From Bacilli bacterium (GTDB lineage: Bacteria; Bacillota_I; Bacilli_A; RF39; UBA660), in assembly GCA_017406955.1 (NCBI GenBank), contig JAFQXM010000007.1:13743-77742 (forward strand): DNA of 64,000 bases, given 5' to 3'. The first letter of the stretch is position 1; every line of letters starts with the position of its first letter. Below, one piece after another: positions 22,590 through 57,324 of the stretch. Under the pieces are notes generated by a model. The model was not told the origin of the DNA. It ran no database searches and saw nothing but the letters and a program-made list of their open reading frames with translations. Both the position numbers and the translations under genes were made by a program.

Positions 22590-22860
22590 TCTTTCTAATG
22601 TATTAATTACATAAAAAAATTATTATAAACATAAGGACGAAATGTTCGCGGTACCACCTTATTTTATAATAATTTATATTATACACTTAAATAGTTAACG
22701 CCTATCTACGATTATACCTACATATCGATATAATAGTTCAGAAGCCATAGTTTATAAATTATTTATGTTCACTTTCACCTAGCAGAACTCTCTAAGATAA
22801 ATAGTTTTTATAAACCTCTTCATCAATACATTTCAAATATGCATTAGTATAACACAATTT
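22590..22860 (-). promoter_or_regulatory. T-box riboswitch leader (Met specifier) upstream of metG
   Basis: Minus-strand AAGGUGGUACCGCG matches the T-box consensus NGGGUGGNACCGCG. AGAGA motif and candidate AUG specifier lie upstream within a 284-nt leader. Confidence 0.6.
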
Positions 22861-34944: not shown

Positions 34945-35030
34945 AAAATAAAACGTGCACATAAAAGTTAAATGTTAAGGCTGCTATCTTCCGATTCTGA
35001 CCTGGTTCCATCACTTTTATTGCACGTATA
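34945..35030 (-). ncRNA. ffs: small (4.5S-type) signal recognition particle RNA
   Basis: Minus-strand CCAGGUCAGAAUCGGAAGAUAGCAGCC matches SRP RNA domain IV (CCAGGUCAGGUCCGGAAGGAAGCAGCC). Closed by a 13-bp helix GUGCAAUAAAAGU/ACUUUUAUGUGCAC; U-rich tail. Confidence 0.7.
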
Positions 35031-35031
35031 T

Positions 35032-37741: not shown

Positions 37742-39676
37742 CTATATATCAAGATTCTCAACATATTGAGCATTTTCTTCTATAAATTTTCTTCTAGGTT
37801 CTACTTCTTCACCCATTAGTTTTTGGAATATTGAATCTGCTTCTACTAAATCATCTACAGTAATTTTTCTTAAAGTTCTTTGTTCTATATCCATAGTTGT
37901 TTCATTTAATTCTTCAGCATCCATTTCTCCTAAACCTTTCATACGAGCTATTTCAGCACGATCTCTAATATTTTCAGGTAAAGAATTTAAATATTCATTT
38001 AATTCATCATCATTAAGCACATATTTTCTAGTTTTACCATGCATTATTCTATATAGTGGTGGCTGTGCAGCATAAACATGTCCTTCTTCTACTATAGGTC
38101 TAAAGAATCTATAGAATAAAGTAAGTAATAATACTCTAATATGAGAACCATCTACATCTGCATCGGTCATGATTACAATTTTATCGTATCTTAATTTACT
38201 AAGATCAAATTCATCACCAATACCTGTACCAAATGCAGTTATGATAGTTCTTATTTCTTCATTACCTAAAGCTCTATCAAGTCTATTTTTTTCAACATTT
38301 AATATTTTTCCACGTAAAGGTAAAATTGCTTGAGTCATTGAATCTCTACCCTTTTTAGCAGAACCTCCAGCTGAATCTCCCTCGACTATAAATATTTCAG
38401 ATTCTTTAGGATCTTTACTCTTACAATCAGATAATTTACCAAAGAAATTACTAACAGCTAAATCACTTTTTCTAGTAATTTCTCTTGCTTTTTTAGCTGC
38501 ATGTCTAGCACGAGAAGCTAAAATAGCCTTTTCTATAATCACTTTTGCTTCACTAGGATTTTCTAATAAGAATTTTTCAAATCCTTTAGCAAATATACTA
38601 TCTGCAAGTTTTCTAACTTCAGAATTTCCAAGTCTTCCTTTAGTTTGTCCTTCAAATTGAGGATTTGGATGTTTACAAGATATAATCATTGTTAATCCTT
38701 CTTTAACATCATCACCTGTTAAAGACTCATCTTTTTCTTTTAATATATTATTCTTTTTAGCATAACTATTTATAACTCTAGTTAAAGCTCTTTTAACACC
38801 TTCTTCATGAGTACCACCATCATGAGTATTAATATTATTAACAAAAGAATAAATATTTTCATTATATCCAGTATTATATTGCATTGCTACTTCAAACATT
38901 ACATTATTTTCTTCACCTTCTAAGTGAATAATATCTTCATGAATTGGTGTTTTTTCTTGATTGATAAATTTAACATATTCAGAAATTCCACCTTCATATA
39001 AGAATGTTTCTCCTGTAGATTCATCTAGGTCTCTATCATCTCTTAAAGTTAATCTTAAACCTTTATTTAAGAAAGCTAATTCCCTAACTCTTACCATTAA
39101 AGTATTATAATCATAAATATCAGTATCGAATATATCTGGATCTGGTTTAAAAGTAACAAAAGTTCCTGTTCTATTAGGTTCACACTCCCCTATTACTTTT
39201 AAAGGTTCAACAGTATGACCACCATTTTCAAACTTTATATAATAAATTTTAGAATCTTTATATACTTTAACTTCTACCCATTTACTTAATGCATTAACAA
39301 CACTAGCACCAACTCCGTGAAGTCCACCAGATACTTTATATCCTCCTCCACCAAATTTACCACCAGCATGTAATACTGTATAAACAGTTTCAACTGTACT
39401 TATACCAGTCTTTTTATGCTTTTCAACAGGTATACCGCGTCCATCATCTTTAACTGTAATACTATTATCTTTATTAATAATAATTTCTATATTATTACAA
39501 AAACCAGCTAAAGATTCATCAATAGCATTATCAACAATTTCCCATACTAAATGATGAAGACCTTTGACATCAGTAGTACCAATATACATACCTGGTCTTT
39601 TTCTAACAGCTTCTAATCCTTCTAAGACTTGAATTGCGGATGAATCATATTTTTCTTCGACTTTTTCTTCACTCAT
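37742..39676 (-). CDS. gyrB: DNA gyrase subunit B
   Basis: GHKL ATPase, Toprim [17 protein letters not shown] motifs. Confidence 0.95.
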
Positions 39677-39683
39677 CTTATCC

Positions 39684-40793
39684 CTACTTTCTCTCTACTT
39701 GTCCATTATCTATTTTATATATAGTTGCATTTTCTAAATATTTCTTATTGATTCTTCTTAAATCAGTAGTAGTAATTATACTTTGAATATTATTTCCTAC
39801 TAATTTTAATAACTTATTACTCTTTTTAACATCTAATTCACTAAATATATCATCTAAAAGTAATATTGGTAATTCTTCACAATATTCTTCAAATATAGGT
39901 ATTTCACTTAATTTAAACGCAATAACTGCAGCTTTTTGTTGTCCTTGAGATCCAAAATACTTTAAATTTTCACCATTCAATAAAAATTCAAAATCATCTC
40001 TATGAGGACCATACATAGTCATACCATAATTTAATTCCTTTTGATAATTACTATCATAAGTAGATTTCATTACCTTTATTATTTCATCATCTTCATACTT
40101 ATCAATCTCAATATTAGGAACATAATTAACTTTTAAAACTTCAGAATTAGTAATACTTTTATAATTATCACTTATATTTTTATTAATATTATCTATAAAT
40201 TCTTTTCTTAATTTATAAATTATTACTGCTTTTTCTATTAACTTATCAGTAATTACATCTAAATAATTCTTATCAGCAATAGAATTACTAAATAATAATT
40301 TTAAATATTCATTCCTAGTTTTTAAAATTTTATTATATTCATTATAAGTATTTAAATAAATTTTAGATATTTGTGAAAGTTCTATATTTAATAAATTTCT
40401 GCGTATATTAGGTGATCCTTTTATAATATCTAAATCATCTGGAGTAAATACTATAACATTTAAATTAGATATATAATCTGATACTTTCTTAACTTCATCT
40501 AAATTTAAAGTTAATTTTTTACTATCATTTGTTATTTTTACTCCTAATTTAGATACAATCTTATTTTTCTTAACTATTCCTTTTATAGAACTTTTATTTT
40601 TACCATGTTTTATAATATTAGGACTAATACCTATTCTATGAGACTTTGTTAAAGCTAAAATTACTATAGATTCTAATATATTAGTTTTACCTTGAGCATT
40701 ATCTCCAATAAAAATATTCATATTATTACCTAATTTTATATCAACACGGTCATAATTTCTAAAATTTACTAAGTTTAATTTAGTTATTTTCAT
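39684..40793 (-). CDS. recF: DNA replication and repair protein RecF
   Basis: Walker [10 protein letters not shown] and ABC/SMC signature; conserved after dnaN. Confidence 0.9.
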
Positions 40794-40897
40794 CCAGAAC
40801 GCAAAATAAGAGCCATATAATCACCTTTCCCCTATCTCGGTATTCCTATACACACATTAATATTATATCATAAAAAGCAGGATTAATCACTAAAAAA

Positions 40898-40915
40898 ATA
40901 GTTAACACTAACTAT
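40898..40915 (-). terminator. terminator at comK-like gene 3' end
   Basis: ATAGTTA-ACAC-TAACTAT hairpin with an A-run on the plus strand. Confidence 0.45.
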
Positions 40916-41363
40916 TTTCTTTTATTTTTCTATTTCTCATAATTAAATCTAATCTAGATGCTCTAGAAATTTGATTTTCTACAGATCTAAATGATACAGG
41001 TACTATAATTTCTTTATCATTATTAAATATTATTTTAGTACTTGTAGAATCTATCCTTTTTATTCTTTTTACATGACCTAAAGAAATCCATGCACAATCT
41101 TCAGCTCTTGGTGAAGTCGTAGGAAAAAGTATAATATTATTAGATTCTTCTAATATTATAGGTACTTTATATTCAGCACCTAATATACTTTTAGCACTTT
41201 CTTTTCTACCATTATAAGAACTACCAAAGTACTTACAACTTTCTTCCATTATTTTAAATGGTTTTTCTTTAATAATATACCTTTCGTGATCTTCATAAAC
41301 TAAACTACTTTCTTCTGTGTTTGGTACGATTGCTAAAGTACCCTTTGTTACTTCATAATTCAT
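40908..41363 (-). CDS. comK: ComK-family competence transcription factor
   Basis: Four aligned blocks against B. subtilis ComK: YEVTKGTLAIVP; SCKYFGSSYNGRK; LFPTTSPRAEDCAWISLGHVK; SFRSVENQISRASRL. Confidence 0.65.
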   Translation of the reverse strand: MNYEVTKGTLAIVPNTEESSLVYEDHERYIIKEKPFKIMEESCKYFGSSYNGRKESAKSILGAEYKVPIILEESNNIILFPTTSPRAEDCAWISLGHVKRIKRIDSTSTKIIFNNDKEIIVPVSFRSVENQISRASRLDLIMRNRKIKENS

Positions 41364-41482
41364 ATATATTCCCCCTTAGAAAACTTCCGTTTTCGCAAAT
41401 TAAAATAGCATATTTATATGTCTAAATTTGTTGAAATATGTCTATTCATATATATTATTATCAAAAAATAATATTTTTCCAT

Positions 41483-41506
41483 AAAAAAAATAGAATTTCT
41501 TCTATT
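41483..41506 (-). terminator. terminator after dnaN
   Basis: AATAGAA/TTCTATT hairpin with an A8 run on the plus strand. Confidence 0.5.
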
Positions 41507-41507
41507 T

Positions 41508-42641
41508 TTAATATGTTCTAATAGGTAAAACTAATTGAGTTAATGTTTCGTCATCTTTAGATTTTATAAGTATTGGTTTAATTTCTCCTACAAAATGAAT
41601 ATCCACAGTTTCTGCCTTAAAACTTTTTAAAGCTTCCATCATATATTTAGCACTAAAACTAATTTTTATATCTTCTTTATTATTTTTCTTTATATTCATC
41701 TTTTCTTCTACTCTACCTACTTCTGCAGATGAACTCTTTAAAGTTAATATATCTCCATTTGTTTCTAAAGTAACAATATTTTTTTCTTTATCACTAGTTA
41801 AAATACTAACTCTATCCACAACATTATAGAAATCTTCTAAATTAACACTAAGAGTCATTAATGAATCATCTGGTAATAAATTAGAAGTATTTGGATATGT
41901 TCCATTAATTAAACGAGATTCAAATTTAATGTTACCTGTTTTAAATAATATTTTATTATTAAATATATGTAATTCAACTTTTTCATTATCCCCAATTATT
42001 CTGGAAAACTCTACAATATTATGACTAGGTATAACTACATTATAATTTTCTTCACTTTCTGATTTTAATTTAATTATTTTCCTAGCTAATCTATAAGAAT
42101 CTGTAGAATTACATTCTAATACATCCCCTACTACATTAAAATTAATACCAGTAAGTACAGGTTTAGTTTCCTCATGTGAAGCTGCAAAAGATGTTTGATT
42201 AACAATATCTTTAAATATATCTGCATCTAATACAATTTTTTTCTTACTTTCTTCTAAAGCTATATTAGGATATTCATTTTTATTTATACCATTTAAATTA
42301 AATTCACTATTATCAGTATAAATAAGTATCTTTAATTCATCTATAACTTCTATATTAATATATTCATCTTGTAATTTTCTAACTATATCTAATATATATT
42401 TTCCTTGTATAACAATACTACCTTCTTTTTCTATATTAAAATCTTCATCTTTATCAGATTCTATAATAGTTTGAATAGTAATATCATTATCACTAGCTGT
42501 TAATATTAATTTTTTCTTTTTTAATTCAAATTTTACTCCAGATAAAACAGGTATTAAATTCTTAGTTGATATTGCTTTTGAAACTTTATTTAAAGCTTCT
42601 AATAATAATTCTCTTTTAATTTTAAATTTCATATTTTTCAA
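41508..42641 (-). CDS. dnaN: DNA polymerase III beta sliding clamp
   Basis: 377 aa with three-domain clamp architecture, directly downstream of dnaA. Confidence 0.9.
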   Translation of the reverse strand: MKNMKFKIKRELLLEALNKVSKAISTKNLIPVLSGVKFELKKKKLILTASDNDITIQTIIESDKDEDFNIEKEGSIVIQGKYILDIVRKLQDEYINIEVIDELKILIYTDNSEFNLNGINKNEYPNIALEESKKKIVLDADIFKDIVNQTSFAASHEETKPVLTGINFNVVGDVLECNSTDSYRLARKIIKLKSESEENYNVVIPSHNIVEFSRIIGDNEKVELHIFNNKILFKTGNIKFESRLINGTYPNTSNLLPDDSLMTLSVNLEDFYNVVDRVSILTSDKEKNIVTLETNGDILTLKSSSAEVGRVEEKMNIKKNNKEDIKISFSAKYMMEALKSFKAETVDIHFVGEIKPILIKSKDDETLTQLVLPIRTY

Positions 42642-42774
42642 TCCTTCTTTCTTATTTATTATTGTTTTATTTTTATTATTACTGTGGAAAAAGTTTAAAA
42701 TTATAATTTATCCTTATTTTATAAAGAAAATAATAAAATTTTATTGTGGATAAATATATGAATAATTTTATTTT
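42642..42774. promoter_or_regulatory. oriC downstream module: DnaA-box cluster plus AT-rich unwinding region (dnaA-dnaN intergenic)
   Basis: TGTGGAAAA (42683..42691), TTATCCTTA (42708..42716), perfect TGTGGATAA (42745..42753) within a >80% AT spacer. Confidence 0.7.
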
Positions 42775-44169: not shown

Positions 44170-44470
44170 GATAAAAATTTCTTACCTAATATTTTATCTT
44201 AATTTGTGAAAAAAATAAACAAAAAATGGATAAAAAAATAAATCCACAAGTTATACACATACTTTTCCACTATAAAAATGATATAAAATAAGAAAAATAT
44301 AGAGTTTTCCACATTTTCCACAAATTTTAATTAACATTTGTTATTTTAATAATTAACATGCCTGTTAATTATGTGGATAAATAAAAATTATAAAAAAACC
44401 CCTATTTTAATTGACAAAACCCCTATATTATTATTATAATAATGTAGATTTATGTTTGGAGGTGGAGCAA
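44170..44470. promoter_or_regulatory. oriC upstream module: DnaA-box cluster with divergent dnaA and rpmH promoters
   Basis: AAATCCACA (44240..44248), TTTTCCACT (44263..44271), tandem TTTTCCACA x2 (44305..44322), perfect TGTGGATAA (44373..44381). rpmH promoter TTGACA (44411..44416), 18-nt spacer, TATAAT (44435..44440). Confidence 0.75.
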
Positions 44471-55465: not shown

Positions 55466-55490
55466 AATACCTAAATGGTATTTTTTATTT
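55466..55490 (+). terminator. terminator after abgT-like gene
   Basis: AATACC-TAAA-TGGTATT hairpin followed by a T6 run. Confidence 0.6.
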
Positions 55491-55952
55491 GAATATAGAT
55501 AATACTTTTACAGTGTTCTTTGGAGGAATATTTTTCTTATATTTATCAACATTATTAAATAAATAACTCAATTTTATAATGTTTTTTCTAATAATGTTTT
55601 TATCTGAAATTGACAGATCATTACCTACTTTAATAGATTTTCTATATTTTGAAGGACTAACACCGATAATCTTATGAAACATTTCACAAAAATACTCTTG
55701 CGACGAAAAACCTGCATCAAGAGATGTTTTAAGTATACTATCATTAGTGTTTCTAATTTTTTTTAATGACAGGAAAATTCGTTTAGTATTAATATAATCT
55801 ATGATAGTGATATTTATTTCTTTTTTAAACAATCTCATAATATAGTCTTTATTATATTTAAAAAAATTAGATATTTCATTAATAGAGATTTGCGTATATA
55901 GGTTATTATCTAAATAATTTAATATATTTATCACTAGATCATTAGAAAACAT
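55485..55952 (-). CDS. AraC/XylS-family transcriptional regulator, DNA-binding domain only (MarA/SoxS-like)
   Basis: Double HTH: ISINEISNFFKYNKDYIMRLFKK and ...SLDAGFSSQEYFCEMFHKIIGVSPSKYR. ATG 55952 preferred, GTG 55979 alternative. No ligand-binding domain. Confidence 0.65.
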   Translation of the reverse strand: MFSNDLVINILNYLDNNLYTQISINEISNFFKYNKDYIMRLFKKEINITIIDYINTKRIFLSLKKIRNTNDSILKTSLDAGFSSQEYFCEMFHKIIGVSPSKYRKSIKVGNDLSISDKNIIRKNIIKLSYLFNNVDKYKKNIPPKNTVKVLSIFK

Positions 55953-55968
55953 ATAATCACCACACTTA

Positions 55969-56025
55969 TATAATAACACAAAAAGTCGTTATTGTTTAAA
56001 AAATATAAAAACAAGTGTTATTATA
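55969..56025. promoter_or_regulatory. divergent promoter region bracketed by perfect 11-bp inverted repeat TATAATAACAC / GTGTTATTATA
   Basis: Left arm at 55969..55979 and right arm at 56015..56025, 35 bp apart, between the AraC-like and T4CP-like genes. Confidence 0.5.
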
Positions 56026-56046
56026 TTTGTGAAAGGAGGAAAAAGT

Positions 56047-57324
56047 ATGAGTTATGCAAGATGGGCAACTAAAGAAGAGTTGTTAAGCAAGTTAGAGAAA
56101 GTAGAGGTAAATAAGAAAATAGATAAATCAGGAATACCGCTAGCATATGAAGAAAACAACTTATATATTGATAATAATGTATCACATAATTTAGTAATTG
56201 GTTCAACAGGTAGTGGAAAAACACAAACAACTATCCTTCCAATGATAAATTTAGCTATTTCTGCTAAAGAATCTATTGTTGTAAATGATCCGTTAGGAGA
56301 ATTATATGAAATAAACAAAGAAAAGTTACAAAAAGAGGGATATGAAGTAGCAGTTTTAAACTTTAATAAACCTGATTCTGGAATATCATGGAATCCATTA
56401 GATATACCACAAAAACTGTATGATAATGGTGATAAAGATAAAGCAAGCAAGATGATAGAGGATATAGCATATTATATATTCACAGACACATCAAGAAAAG
56501 AAGTAGATCCATTCTGGGTTAATTCCACTATTAATTATTTTACAGGACTAACACTATATTTGTTTGAAAATTCTAAAGAAAACATAAATCTATTAAGCCT
56601 AATAGATTTAAAAGAACAAATTGAAAAAGAAGGATCTAAAAAATTTATAGAAAAAATAGATAAAAATTCAGTAGTATATAAAAATTTATCAAGTATTTTA
56701 CTTGCACCACCTGAGACAAGAGGAAGTATATTATCTGTATTTACTGTAAAAATAAAAAATTATATATCAAGAGAAAAAATAAACAACATGTTATCTAATA
56801 GTAGTTTTGATATAAAATCAATTAATAAAAAACCAACTGCTTTTTATATAATTAGTGATAAATATTCTTTTGGTAATTCTTTAATACCTTTATTAATTAA
56901 TCAAATAATTGATTCTATTTCACTAGAAAAAGAAAACAACATAAGAGTAAATATATTCTTAGATGAATTTGACTTTCTAGTACCAATTAAAGATTTTTCA
57001 AGATTAATAGAGTATACAAGAAGATTTAATGTAAGAATAACTGCAGTAATTAAGAGTTATACTCATTTATATAACATGTATACAAAAGAAGAAGTAGAAT
57101 TATTAAAAATGTGTTTTGGTAATATAGTATATTTGTTGTCTAATGATATTTATACTCTAGAAGAAATATCTAGGCAATGTGGTAATAAATCAAGTAAAAA
57201 AGAACCGTTAATTACACCAGAAGAACTAAAAACATTAGATATATATGAAGCAATAATTTTAATGCCTAGAATGATGCCAATAAGAACAAAATTATTACCA
57301 AATTATGAAATAAATTGGGATTAA
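56047..57324 (+). CDS. VirD4/TraG-type type IV coupling protein (T4CP)-like ATPase, soluble, lacking N-terminal TM anchor
   Basis: SYARWATKEEL (T4CP ARWA motif); Walker A GSTGSGKTQTTILPMINL...SIVVNDPLGELYE; Walker B IFLDEFDFL; C-terminal RFNVRITAVIKSY block. ATG 56047 after AAAGGAGGA RBS. Confidence 0.7.
   Translation: MSYARWATKEELLSKLEKVEVNKKIDKSGIPLAYEENNLYIDNNVSHNLVIGSTGSGKTQTTILPMINLAISAKESIVVNDPLGELYEINKEKLQKEGYEVAVLNFNKPDSGISWNPLDIPQKLYDNGDKDKASKMIEDIAYYIFTDTSRKEVDPFWVNSTINYFTGLTLYLFENSKENINLLSLIDLKEQIEKEGSKKFIEKIDKNSVVYKNLSSILLAPPETRGSILSVFTVKIKNYISREKINNMLSNSSFDIKSINKKPTAFYIISDKYSFGNSLIPLLINQIIDSISLEKENNIRVNIFLDEFDFLVPIKDFSRLIEYTRRFNVRITAVIKSYTHLYNMYTKEEVELLKMCFGNIVYLLSNDIYTLEEISRQCGNKSSKKEPLITPEELKTLDIYEAIILMPRMMPIRTKLLPNYEINWD

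What the first reader, a model, noticed from the sequence alone, without database searches (positions are those of the whole stretch)
40794..41507. ComK-family competence regulator between dnaN and recF, with an A4-N6-T4 dyad in its 5' region
The 151-aa ORF aligns block-wise with B. subtilis ComK (YEVxxGTxAIxP; SCxxFGSSYxGRK; LFPTxSxxxxxCxWISxxHVK; SxxSxENQxxRxxxL) but is about 40 aa shorter. The dnaN-recF interval normally holds the small S4-like yaaA gene. A competence master regulator at the origin in a spoVT/yabG/yabP-bearing sporulator is an unusual arrangement. The 5' region also contains the dyad GAAAACTTCCGTTTTC (41376..41391), resembling a ComK box (A4N5T4) with 6-nt spacing. This suggests autoregulation.
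Basis: partly seen in the sequence, partly recalled or inferred. Interest (0 to 1): 0.55.

Follow-up and report, generated by a model that had tools for sequence, protein, structure and literature searches.

The report
Origin-linked short ComK gene
An intact ComK-type regulator gene sits between dnaN and recF next to the replication origin in this genome and in every sampled relative from the uncultured gut order RF39.

Summary
The ORF is real (window 40908..41363, minus strand, 151 aa) and is a clear ComK-family protein (Pfam PF06338, E=2e-46, full profile). It is intact in all 81 relatives checked and under purifying selection.

The gene order dnaA-dnaN-comK-recF-gyrB-gyrA holds in every locus with enough flanking DNA. 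This covers 80 species-level genomes plus 7 more divergent lineages, spanning at least two RF39 families.

The protein covers B. subtilis ComK residues 11-157. It lacks the C-terminal 35 aa that carry the MecA/ClpCP degron and the activation region.

The dyad exists, 3 nt from the stated position (41379..41394). As an A4-N6-T4 match it is at chance level. In relatives it is a 6-bp stem with a loop of variable length and compensatory changes, starting at about the predicted transcription start. So it is an RNA stem-loop, not a K-box.

The conserved promoter holds three direct repeats, TTYGACAAA, at an exact 10-bp period, 11 nt upstream of an extended -10. The consensus is the reverse complement of the Spo0A "0A box" (TGTCGAA).

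Best reading: a stand-alone comK unit driven by a Spo0A-type response regulator. Competence function, Spo0A binding and late com genes were not tested.

The parts
40908..41363 (-). comK: 151-aa short-form ComK-family protein (stop codon TAG at 40908-40910)
   Evidence: ORF list. Pfam PF06338 E=2e-46. 36% identity to B. subtilis ComK, E=3e-34. The exact protein is named 'competence protein ComK [Bacilli bacterium]' in public records. AF2 model pLDDT 94.4. Intact in 81/81 relatives, dN/dS median 0.26.
41379..41394 (-). 5'-UTR stem-loop GAAAAC-GGAA-GUUUUC. It starts at about the predicted transcription start.
   Evidence: Exact position. MFE -5.4 kcal/mol, weak on its own. Conserved 6-bp stem in 63 relatives: 94.4% of cells paired, 5 of 6 pairs with compensatory changes, 26 double-change cells against 5.3 shuffled (0/500), slid controls 33-65% paired. 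Loop length is variable.
41370..41377 (-). Shine-Dalgarno sequence AAGGGGGA, 7 nt upstream of the ATG
   Evidence: Sequence. AGGGGG is present in 70 of 81 relatives' upstream regions.
41402..41410 (-). Extended -10 promoter element TGcTATTTT (TG 41409-41410, hexamer 41402-41407). There is no -35 element at 17-bp spacing.
   Evidence: Position-anchored profile of 77 relatives: T/G at +12/+13 (0.88/0.84), TAT at +15..+17 (0.97/0.97/0.79). The transcription start is inferred, not mapped.
41419..41445 (-). Three direct-repeat boxes at a 10-bp period: ATAGACA (41439-41445), TTCAACA (41429-41435), TTAGACA (41419-41425). These are degenerate copies of the clade consensus TTYGACAAA, which is the reverse complement of the Spo0A 0A box TGTCGAA.
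   Evidence: Profile of 77/81 relatives with fixed GACA-N8-TG geometry. The array is unique in the 64-kb window: triple score 24.8 against a next best of 12.5. Exact TTCGACA occurs at 3.0 per kb in the dnaN-comK spacer of relatives against 0.05 per kb in coding DNA. Within 1.1 Mb of relatives' origin regions the arrays are almost confined to this spot.
41483..41509 (-). AT-rich hairpin plus T-run after dnaN (intrinsic-terminator-like, weak)
   Evidence: Fold -7.0 kcal/mol, z=-2.2. Not called by the G+C-demanding scan.
40892..40918 (-). AT-rich hairpin plus T7 overlapping the comK stop codon (terminator-like, weak)
   Evidence: Fold -6.1 kcal/mol, z=-2.6. AACTATTTTTT is conserved after comK in relatives.
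41508..42641 (-). dnaN (upstream neighbour)
   Evidence: Pfam DNA_pol3_beta domains 1-3. Same neighbour in every locus that reaches it.
39684..40793 (-). recF (downstream neighbour)
   Evidence: Pfam SMC_N and canonical RecF N-terminus. Same neighbour in every locus that reaches it.

Best explanation
This is a functional short-form ComK-family transcription-factor gene. It is a fixed member of the replication-origin gene cluster (dnaA-dnaN-comK-recF-gyrB-gyrA) throughout the sampled part of the uncultured gut/rumen order RF39.

Shown here:
- Family membership, intactness and purifying selection.
- Invariant synteny in about 87 lineages.
- Loss, relative to B. subtilis ComK, of the C-terminal 35 aa that hold the MecA/ClpCP degron and the activation-linked tail.
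- A monocistronic layout bracketed by weak terminator-like hairpins.
- A conserved promoter made of three helically phased direct repeats TTYGACAAA, placed 11 nt upstream of an extended -10 where a -35 would be.
- A conserved stem-loop at about +1 of the transcript, followed by a strong ribosome-binding site.

Inferred:
(a) The repeats are binding sites for a response regulator that binds tandem direct repeats. This is most likely phosphorylated Spo0A, because the consensus equals the 0A box and the 3-bp spacing equals known tandem 0A boxes. About 0.55 for Spo0A specifically.
(b) Binding takes the place of the missing -35 and switches comK on at entry into starvation or sporulation. Activation versus repression is roughly 55:45.
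(c) The 5' stem-loop and strong SD stabilise the mRNA against 5'-end-dependent decay.
(d) With no MecA degron, control has moved from proteolysis to transcription and mRNA level.
(e) The protein regulates DNA-uptake and recombination genes as ComK does in Bacillus.
(f) The origin-adjacent position ties comK dosage to replication status. Weak terminators may also allow read-through from dnaA-dnaN.

The confidence of 0.6 is for the package as a whole. The shown parts are near certain; the inferred parts carry the individual odds given above.
For: Family: Pfam 2e-46; 36% identity and E=3e-34 to the verified COMK_BACSU sequence.

Selection: 81/81 ORFs intact. dN/dS is 0.04-0.19 in close pairs, median 0.26.

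Synteny:
- All 80 species-level loci at 47-93% identity that have enough flank show the order.
- 7 of 7 divergent lineages at 40-49% identity show it too.
- Ca. Faecimonas/CAG-877 is RF39 family CAG-611 and Ca. Aphodocola/CAG-594 is RF39 family CAG-433.

Missing C-terminus: the alignment ends at B. subtilis residue 157. The degron FMLYPKEERT..GERY is C-terminal (PMC8138137). Deleting 25 C-terminal aa abolishes comGA activation but not DNA binding (PMC3128618).

Promoter:
- The profile is shared by 77/81 loci.
- The array is unique in the window.
- TTCGACA is enriched about 60-fold and strand-specifically in this spacer.
- Arrays are confined to this spot across 1.1 Mb.

0A-box identity:
- The core is TGTCGAA, with contacts at G2, C4 and G5 and A/T flanks (PMC3485338). 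The two best-conserved box positions here correspond to G2 and C4.
- Tandem 0A boxes separated by 3 bp are footprinted by Spo0A at a core promoter (PMC2731898).
- Spo0A~P binds PcomK directly in B. subtilis (PMC3297582).
- The same 7-mer sits next to DnaA-type boxes upstream of dnaA in relatives, as 0A boxes do at B. subtilis oriC (PMC2731898).
- RF39 is predicted to sporulate (PMC10868615). The window carries spoVT, yabG, yabP, yabQ and spoVG.

Hairpin: covariation. 5' stem-loops and strong SDs are documented stabilisers of B. subtilis mRNA (reference list of PMC3997798).
Against: - No spo0A, mecA or late competence gene could be looked for in this genome.
- In this genome the three boxes each carry 1-2 mismatches to the 7-mer, and no exact TTCGACA occurs in the window.
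- Boxes that overlap the core promoter act as repressing sites in B. subtilis PcomK (R1) and at phage promoter A2c, so the sign of regulation is open.
- The transcription start is inferred from the -10, not mapped.
- The window's hairpin is weak by itself (-5.4 kcal/mol, z=-1.6). About 8-10 of 77 relatives lack the canonical stem.
- The absent C-terminal tail is needed for activation in B. subtilis. B. cereus ComK2, which also lacks it, lowers comG expression. So an activator role is not assured.
- The paper searches turned up nothing on competence in RF39.
Confidence: 0.6

Rival explanations
1. One reading: the A4-N6-T4 dyad, or a nearby K-box, is a ComK binding site, and comK autoactivates as in B. 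subtilis.
For: B. subtilis ComK activates its own promoter (PMC3297582). In this genome a type-I K-box pattern with one mismatch lies at 41465..41498, about -70 to -103 from the inferred start. Such patterns are over-represented in the window: 13 against 3.9 expected.
Against: - The dyad has the wrong spacing and is a single unit. A4N6T4 and A4N5T4 both occur at chance frequency.
- The arms covary and the loop length varies, which indicates RNA structure.
- The dyad lies downstream of the -10.
- The 41465..41498 match is built from the A- and T-tracts of the dnaN terminator.
- Only 4 of 77 relatives have such a box with at most 1 mismatch, at inconsistent positions.
Confidence: 0.08
2. The three TTYGACAAA direct repeats are the recognition sites of the short ComK itself, giving autoregulation through a different site, and not of Spo0A.
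Against: - The consensus is identical to the 0A box known from Bacillus and Clostridioides, which would be a coincidence under this model.
- The same 7-mer recurs beside DnaA boxes at oriC, a known Spo0A behaviour.
- The box consensus is similar in lineages whose ComK is only 40-47% identical to this one.
- B. subtilis ComK recognises A/T tracts, not this motif.
Confidence: 0.2
3. The short ComK is not a competence activator. Lacking the C-terminal tail, it acts as a DNA-binding repressor or regulates another programme, for example origin-region or recombination genes.
For: The C-terminal 35 aa are absent. Loss of 25 C-terminal aa abolishes activation but keeps DNA binding in B. subtilis. B. 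cereus ComK2, truncated by 22 aa, lowers comG expression (PMC3128618). The gene is permanently linked to dnaN and recF. No com machinery gene was seen.
Against: About 150-aa ComKs are a large, strongly conserved subfamily. All family-wide invariant residues are kept. The absence of com genes from a 64-kb window says nothing about the rest of the genome.
Confidence: 0.3
4. The repeats bind another factor: a different OmpR/PhoB-type response regulator, or DnaA acting on variant boxes.
For: The 10-bp direct-repeat geometry ending about 10 bp before the -10 is generic for class-II response-regulator promoters (my own knowledge). TTCGACA differs from the DnaA-box core TTCCACA by one base. The locus adjoins oriC. 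In RF39 family CAG-433 a perfect DnaA box overlaps the comK -10.
Against: The position that separates the two motifs is G in 0.88 of proximal boxes and C in 0.01. Ordinary TTATCCACA boxes are used at this genome's oriC. No other known regulator motif I could recall matches 7 of 7.
Confidence: 0.15
5. The ORF is a decayed remnant or a chance ORF.
For: It is 41 aa shorter than B. subtilis ComK.
Against: The Pfam profile is fully covered. All 81 relatives are intact, with dN/dS well below 1. The AF2 model is confident. The gene has its own conserved promoter and ribosome-binding site.
Confidence: 0.01

Closest known systems
B. subtilis ComK (COMK_BACSU, 192 aa), master regulator of competence
   Same: Same Pfam family. 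36% identity over the whole conserved core. The promoter appears to be tied to Spo0A, as PcomK is in B. subtilis.
   Different: - Lacks residues 158-192, which hold the MecA degron and the activation-linked tail.
- The gene sits in the origin cluster instead of at a distant locus (B. subtilis location from my own knowledge).
- No conserved K-box.
- The promoter has three phased boxes in place of a -35, plus a 5' stem-loop.
B. cereus ComK2 (C-terminally truncated ComK paralogue)
   Same: A short ComK that lacks the C-terminal region (PMC3128618).
   Different: ComK2 coexists with a full-length ComK1. Here the short form is the only ComK seen at this locus and is the lineage's fixed form. Sequence relatedness to ComK2 was not tested.
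Tandem Spo0A 0A boxes (abrB promoter; phage phi29/Nf A2c promoter; B. subtilis PcomK sites A1-A3 and R1-R2)
   Same: 7-bp core TGTCGAA with A/T flanks. Boxes are separated by 3 bp and overlap the core promoter. There is precedent for direct Spo0A control of comK.
   Different: Three boxes in strict phase, fixed 8 nt before the TG of an extended -10. Binding and sign of regulation are untested. This genome's copies are degenerate.
Origin-proximal comCDE of Streptococcus pneumoniae
   Same: A competence master-regulator locus kept next to oriC. There it is proposed to couple competence to replication stress through gene dosage (PMC8394987).
   Different: Unrelated regulators: a two-component system and peptide there, ComK here. 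Any dosage effect here is pure inference.
5'-terminal stem-loop and strong-SD mRNA stabilisers of B. subtilis (aprE leader, hbs, ermC-type)
   Same: A short hairpin at the extreme 5' end followed by a strong ribosome-binding site.
   Different: The transcript 5' end and its half-life are not measured here. The stem is only 6 bp and AU-rich.
LytTR DNA-binding domains (AgrA, ComE)
   Different: No detectable sequence similarity (8-10% identity). ComK adds a long C-terminal helix and has no receiver domain. I did not check whether this resemblance is already published.

Membership tests
ComK family (Pfam PF06338) | Profile match above the curated threshold over the full domain | tested here: met
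   E=2e-46, 157.9 bits against a cut-off of 22.3, profile positions 3-150 of 152.
ComK family (Pfam PF06338) | Family-wide conserved residues and blocks (SCxYFGSS..GR, K.P, FPT.S, C.W, NQ) | tested here: met
   Invariant columns T9, C43, G47, R53, K66, P68, P81, Q131 and L138 are all present in a 26-sequence alignment. Block alignment to COMK_BACSU.
B. subtilis-type ComK regulator (functional sense) | C-terminal tail carrying the MecA/ClpCP degron (FMLYPK...) and needed for activation | tested here: not met
   The alignment ends at B. subtilis residue 157, and the protein ends 6 aa later. Degron and tail function are from PMC8138137 and PMC3128618.
B. subtilis-type ComK regulator (functional sense) | Controls late competence genes (comE, comF, comG, dprA, ssbB) | not testable with these tools
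   None of these genes lies in the 64-kb window. The rest of the genome could not be reached.
ComK box (K-box) | Two AAAA-N5-TTTT units separated by 8, 18 or 31 bp (my own knowledge of Hamoen et al. 1998) | tested here: not met
   The dyad is a single A4-N6-T4 unit at chance frequency. A 1-mismatch type-I pattern exists at 41465..41498 but is seen in only 4/77 relatives.
Spo0A-controlled promoter (0A boxes) | One or more matches to the 7-bp core TGTCGAA, often tandem with 3-bp spacers | tested here: met
   The clade consensus is TTYGACAAA three times at a 10-bp period. The window copies have 2, 1 and 1 mismatches. Comparable mismatch levels count as sites in B. subtilis PcomK.
Spo0A-controlled promoter (0A boxes) | Spo0A encoded in the genome and binding the site | not testable with these tools
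   Indirect only. RF39 is predicted to sporulate and sporulation genes lie in the window.
5'-terminal mRNA-stabilising stem-loop | Base-paired stem maintained by compensatory change | tested here: met
   94.4% of cells paired. 5 of 6 pairs show double changes. Shuffle and slide controls are far lower.
5'-terminal mRNA-stabilising stem-loop | Stem lies within a few nt of the transcript 5' end and prolongs half-life | not testable with these tools
   The position is inferred from the conserved -10: the stem starts 7-8 nt after the hexamer.
Known RNA families (Rfam) | Covariance-model match | tested here: not met
   No match at E<=1 in 40700..41600.

The most novel reading that the evidence does not exclude
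In the order RF39 the competence regulator has been built into the replication-origin operon region and rewired. A ComK without the proteolysis degron would be driven directly by Spo0A~P through a three-box promoter that lacks a -35, and in a sister family also by DnaA through a box over the -10. The decision to take up DNA would then be read from sporulation-phosphorelay state and replication or origin dosage, not from quorum-sensing-controlled proteolysis. This would be a convergent counterpart of the origin-proximal comCDE of pneumococci.
Probability: 0.25. Interest if true: 0.65.

Novelty: new variant of a known kind. Interest (0 to 1): 0.5.

Why it matters
RF39 is a widespread, uncultured gut and rumen lineage with reduced genomes and many auxotrophies.

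A conserved ComK gene with a readable control region gives a concrete, testable handle on two questions: whether these organisms become competent, and when. That bears on horizontal gene flow in the gut, on DNA as a nutrient source, and on making such organisms genetically tractable.

The result also shows that the Bacillus competence circuit (MecA/ClpCP/ComS proteolysis plus K-box autoactivation) is not the only way a ComK gene is wired. It offers a second possible case, after pneumococcal comCDE, of a competence regulator anchored at the replication origin.

The real candidate operator lay 25 nt further upstream.

Tried and rejected
- NCBIfam scan of the protein: no family.
- PDB sequence search: no relative.
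- Rfam on the whole window found only a T-box and SRP RNA elsewhere. Nothing in the interval at E<=1.
- The consensus promoter/terminator scan did not call the AT-rich terminators or the extended -10. These rest on folding and conservation instead.
- The first attempt to scan genomes with a 26-sequence alignment failed because no stretch was conserved enough. A narrower alignment worked.
- DnaA-box reading of the repeats: rejected. The discriminating base is G, not C, and normal DnaA boxes are used at oriC.
- CodY, PhoP and AbrB/DegU motifs, compared from memory only: none fits the asymmetric 7-mer and 10-bp period.
- CsrA-type GGA-in-loop reading of the hairpin: rejected. GGA is present in this genome's loop but not conserved in relatives' loops.
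- An alternative pairing of the 3' arm with the SD appears in some outputs, but it is G-U rich and not consistently conserved.
- A metagenome-wide scan for other promoters with the box and -10 geometry was planned, to separate Spo0A from ComK. It was dropped because exact IUPAC patterns with at least 14 specified bases recover only 0-5 of the 80 known comK promoters.
- Literature searches for competence or ComK in RF39, or for comK between dnaN and recF, found nothing on point.
- The supplement of PMC10868615 held no per-family spo0A or comK entries.
Full report
**What is there**

The interval between recF (39684..40793) and dnaN (41508..42641), both on the minus strand, holds one ORF of 40 aa or more: 40908..41363, minus strand, 151 aa.
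- It matches Pfam ComK (PF06338) at E=2e-46 and 157.9 bits, over positions 3-150 of the 152-position profile.
- NCBIfam has no model for it, and no solved structure is related by sequence.
- The identical protein is in public records as 'MAG: competence protein ComK [Bacilli bacterium]'.
- I recalled the B. subtilis ComK sequence and confirmed it as exactly COMK_BACSU by look-up. Against it the ORF shows 36% identity, E=3e-34, residues 2-145 to B. subtilis 11-157.
- About 150-aa ComKs are not oddities. They dominate the nearest 150 cluster representatives.

**Is it a live gene**

In 81 relatives the ORF is intact. Four apparent internal stops were tblastn alignments running past the true stop codon. 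dN/dS is 0.04-0.19 for close pairs, with a median of 0.26. An AlphaFold2 model built on 26 homologues is confident: pLDDT 94.4, pTM 0.89. The remnant hypothesis is rejected.

**Whose genome, and how general is the arrangement**

- A scan of one genome per species found 229 relatives. The best 80 (47-93% identity) were fetched.
- Every locus with enough flanking DNA reads dnaA-dnaN-comK-recF-gyrB-gyrA.
- Seven further lineages with ComK only 40-49% identical to this one show the same order, preceded by rpmH-rnpA-yidC-jag.
- One locus is Mycoplasma sp. CAG:877. GTDB genus CAG-877 (Ca. Faecimonas) belongs to order RF39, family CAG-611.
- A divergent cluster is Ca. Aphodocola / Clostridium sp. CAG:594, in RF39 family CAG-433.
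- The arrangement is therefore a fixed trait in every RF39 lineage sampled, covering at least two families, and not a quirk of this genome.
- RF39 is predicted from gene content to form spores (PMC10868615). The window carries SpoVT, YabG, YabP, YabQ, SpoVG, DivIC and a sigma factor in the position where sigH normally sits.
- From my own knowledge, B. subtilis has yaaA/rlbA between dnaN and recF, and remB between recF and gyrB. Neither is present here: only 7 nt separate recF and gyrB.

**The dyad**

On the coding strand it reads GAAAAC-GGAA-GTTTTC. It ends 2 nt before the ribosome-binding site AAGGGGGA, which lies 7 nt from the ATG.

As a sequence pattern it is unremarkable:
- A4-N6-T4 occurs 32 times against 25.9 expected.
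- A4-N5-T4 occurs 27 times against 26.6 expected.

What is remarkable is its behaviour in relatives:
- The two arms stay complementary while the spacer varies in length.
- The arms change together: GAAAGC/GCUUUC, GGAAAC/GUUUCC, GUAAAC/GUUUAC, AAGUCAUU/AAUGACUU, CUACAU/AUGUAG.
- On an unguided MAFFT alignment of 63 sequences, RNAalifold finds the 6-bp stem with compensatory changes at 5 of 6 pairs.
- 94.4% of cells pair, against 88.3% in shuffles. There are 26 double-change cells against 5.3 in shuffles (0/500). Sliding the partner by 1-3 columns drops pairing to 33-65%.

Variable spacing plus covariation excludes a fixed-geometry protein site such as a K-box and indicates RNA structure. The stem is weak on its own in this genome (-5.4 kcal/mol, z=-1.6). 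About 8-10 relatives have a different arrangement in which the SD lies in a loop.

**The promoter**

I anchored the relatives' upstream regions on a shared GACA-N8-TG spacing. This gave a position profile shared by 77 of 81 loci. The consensus is TTCGACAAA-TTYGACAAA-TTCGACAAA at an exact 10-bp period, then 8 nt, then TGnTATAAT.
- A -35 hexamer at 17-bp spacing is absent. The middle box would be a TYGACA at 21-bp spacing.
- The hairpin begins 7-8 nt after the -10 hexamer, at about the transcription start.
- In the window the elements are ATAGACA (41439-41445), TTCAACA (41429-41435), TTAGACA (41419-41425), TG (41409-41410) and TATTTT (41402-41407).
- This triple array is the best in the 64-kb window by a wide margin: 24.8 against 12.5.
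- In relatives, exact TTCGACA occurs at 3.0 per kb in this spacer (37 forward, 4 reverse). The rate is 0.05 per kb in coding DNA and zero in the two neighbouring spacers.
- Arrays above threshold across 1.1 Mb fall almost only here.

**What the boxes resemble**

TTCGACA is the reverse complement of TGTCGAA, the Spo0A 0A box.
- That core has protein contacts at G2, C4 and G5, and has A/T flanks (PMC3485338).
- The two best-conserved box positions here correspond to G2 and C4.
- Two 0A boxes separated by 3 bp, the same 10-bp period, are footprinted by Spo0A across part of a core promoter in phage Nf/phi29 (PMC2731898).
- In B. subtilis, Spo0A~P binds PcomK directly at five sites with up to 2 of 7 mismatches. 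It first activates and then represses (PMC3297582).
- In relatives the same 7-mer recurs upstream of dnaA, in phase with TGTGGA(A/T)AA DnaA-type boxes. This recalls 0A boxes at B. subtilis oriC.
- The boxes are not DnaA boxes. The discriminating base is G in 0.88 and C in 0.01 of proximal boxes. This genome's oriC uses ordinary TTATCCACA boxes, in the dnaA-dnaN spacer and upstream of dnaA.

From my own knowledge, direct repeats ending about 10 bp before the -10 and replacing the -35 are the layout of class-II response-regulator promoters (pho box). Also from my own knowledge, Spo0A-activated spoIIG and spoIIE have -35-like hexamers at 21-22 bp. Neither point was checked here.

**K-boxes proper**

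A type-I pattern (A4N5T4-N8-A4N5T4) with one mismatch lies at 41465..41498. Such patterns are over-represented in the window, 13 against 3.9. This one is formed by the A- and T-tracts of the dnaN terminator. Only 4 of 77 relatives have a match with at most 1 mismatch, 8 of 77 with at most 2, and the positions vary. ComK autoregulation through a B. subtilis-type site is therefore not a conserved property. It cannot be excluded for this one genome.

**The protein's missing tail**

The absent B. subtilis residues 158-192 contain the MecA-recognised degron FMLYPKEERT...GERY (PMC8138137). A 25-aa C-terminal deletion of B. subtilis ComK keeps DNA binding but loses comGA activation. B. cereus ComK2, which lacks 22 aa, lowers comG expression (PMC3128618). 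So this ComK cannot be controlled by MecA/ClpCP in the Bacillus manner. Whether it activates at all is open.

**Most likely mechanism**

Shown: an intact, selected short ComK gene, bracketed by weak terminator-like hairpins. It has its own conserved promoter of three phased direct repeats plus an extended -10, a conserved 5' stem-loop, and a strong SD. It is permanently embedded in the origin cluster.

Inferred:
- A tandem-binding response regulator, most likely Spo0A~P (about 0.55), occupies the boxes. It either substitutes for the -35 to switch comK on at entry into starvation or sporulation, or blocks the promoter. I favour activation at roughly 55:45.
- The 5' hairpin and strong SD protect the mRNA, as in the aprE and hbs leaders (references in PMC3997798).
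- With no degron, control sits at transcription and mRNA level.
- The origin location ties copy number, and possibly read-through from dnaA-dnaN, to replication state. This is as proposed for origin-proximal comCDE in pneumococci (PMC8394987).
- The regulated genes are presumed to be the DNA-uptake and recombination set. I could not look for them: none is in the window, and the genome-wide tools were exhausted.

**Rivals**

- Another regulator may bind the boxes.
- The protein may be a repressor or serve a non-competence role.

**Verdict**

The family assignment and the genomic position are correct. The K-box and autoregulation reading of the dyad is not supported.

The gene is already annotated as ComK in public MAGs, so the family is known. 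What appears new, within the limits of my literature searches, is:
- the conserved origin-linked placement across the sampled RF39 lineages;
- the degron-less short form as the lineage's standard;
- the promoter with three 0A-type boxes and no -35, followed by a 5' hairpin.

I rate this a new variant of a known kind, with moderate interest.

Noticed in passing
window 40790-40870 (minus strand), recF leader: The comK-recF spacer is more conserved than comK itself. It holds an extended -10 TGATATAAT (40862-40870), an invariant GTATAGGAATAC (40840-40851), a strong SD, and an 8-codon upstream ORF (40790-40816, MALILRSG*). GTATAGGAATAC is exact in 65/79 relatives and unique in the window. The uORF's stop codon overlaps the recF ATG (ATGA). 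A uORF of exactly 8 codons is present in 71/79 relatives, with consensus M-x-L-F/L-x-G-F-K. This suggests translational coupling or a leader-peptide control of recF. There is no Rfam match.
   Followed up: partly
[not shown]
   Followed up: partly
L089:4893-5000 and L091:4865-5000 (RF39 family CAG-433): In this sister family a perfect DnaA box (TGTGGATAA) overlaps the -10 region of the comK promoter, downstream of two of the direct-repeat boxes. This hints at DnaA input into comK expression.
   Followed up: no
relatives L029, L034, L036, L046, L059, L060, L067, L074, L077, L078, L083: 90-250 nt upstream of dnaA: Exact 0A-type boxes (TGTCGAA/TTCGACA) sit in phase directly next to runs of TGTGGA(A/T)AA DnaA-type boxes in the presumed oriC. 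The exact 7-mer occurs 18 times within 600 nt upstream of dnaA across the loci searched.
   Followed up: partly
window 42642-42774 and 44170-44410: Classical DnaA boxes (TTATCCACA exact or with 1 mismatch) cluster in the dnaA-dnaN spacer (42683, 42745) and upstream of dnaA (44251, 44305, 44314, 44372). This marks a bipartite oriC of the Bacillus type.
   Followed up: no
window 56029-57324 (+): A VirD4/TraG-type type IV secretion coupling protein (Pfam T4SS-DNA_transf 5.7e-44) lies among housekeeping genes (parB, ychF, rpsF-ssb). Next to it is a divergently oriented 164-aa ORF (55485-55979) that I did not scan. This may be a remnant of an integrated conjugative element.
   Followed up: no
window 39676-39684: recF and gyrB are separated by only 7 nt, so the remB/yaaB gene found between them in B. 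subtilis is absent, as is yaaA/rlbA from the dnaN-recF interval. Whether either gene exists elsewhere in the genome was not tested.
   Followed up: no
window 22630-22835 (-) and 34946-35031 (-): A T-box leader lies upstream of metG (Rfam 109 bits). The small SRP RNA lies between tadA and gyrA (57 bits).
   Followed up: no
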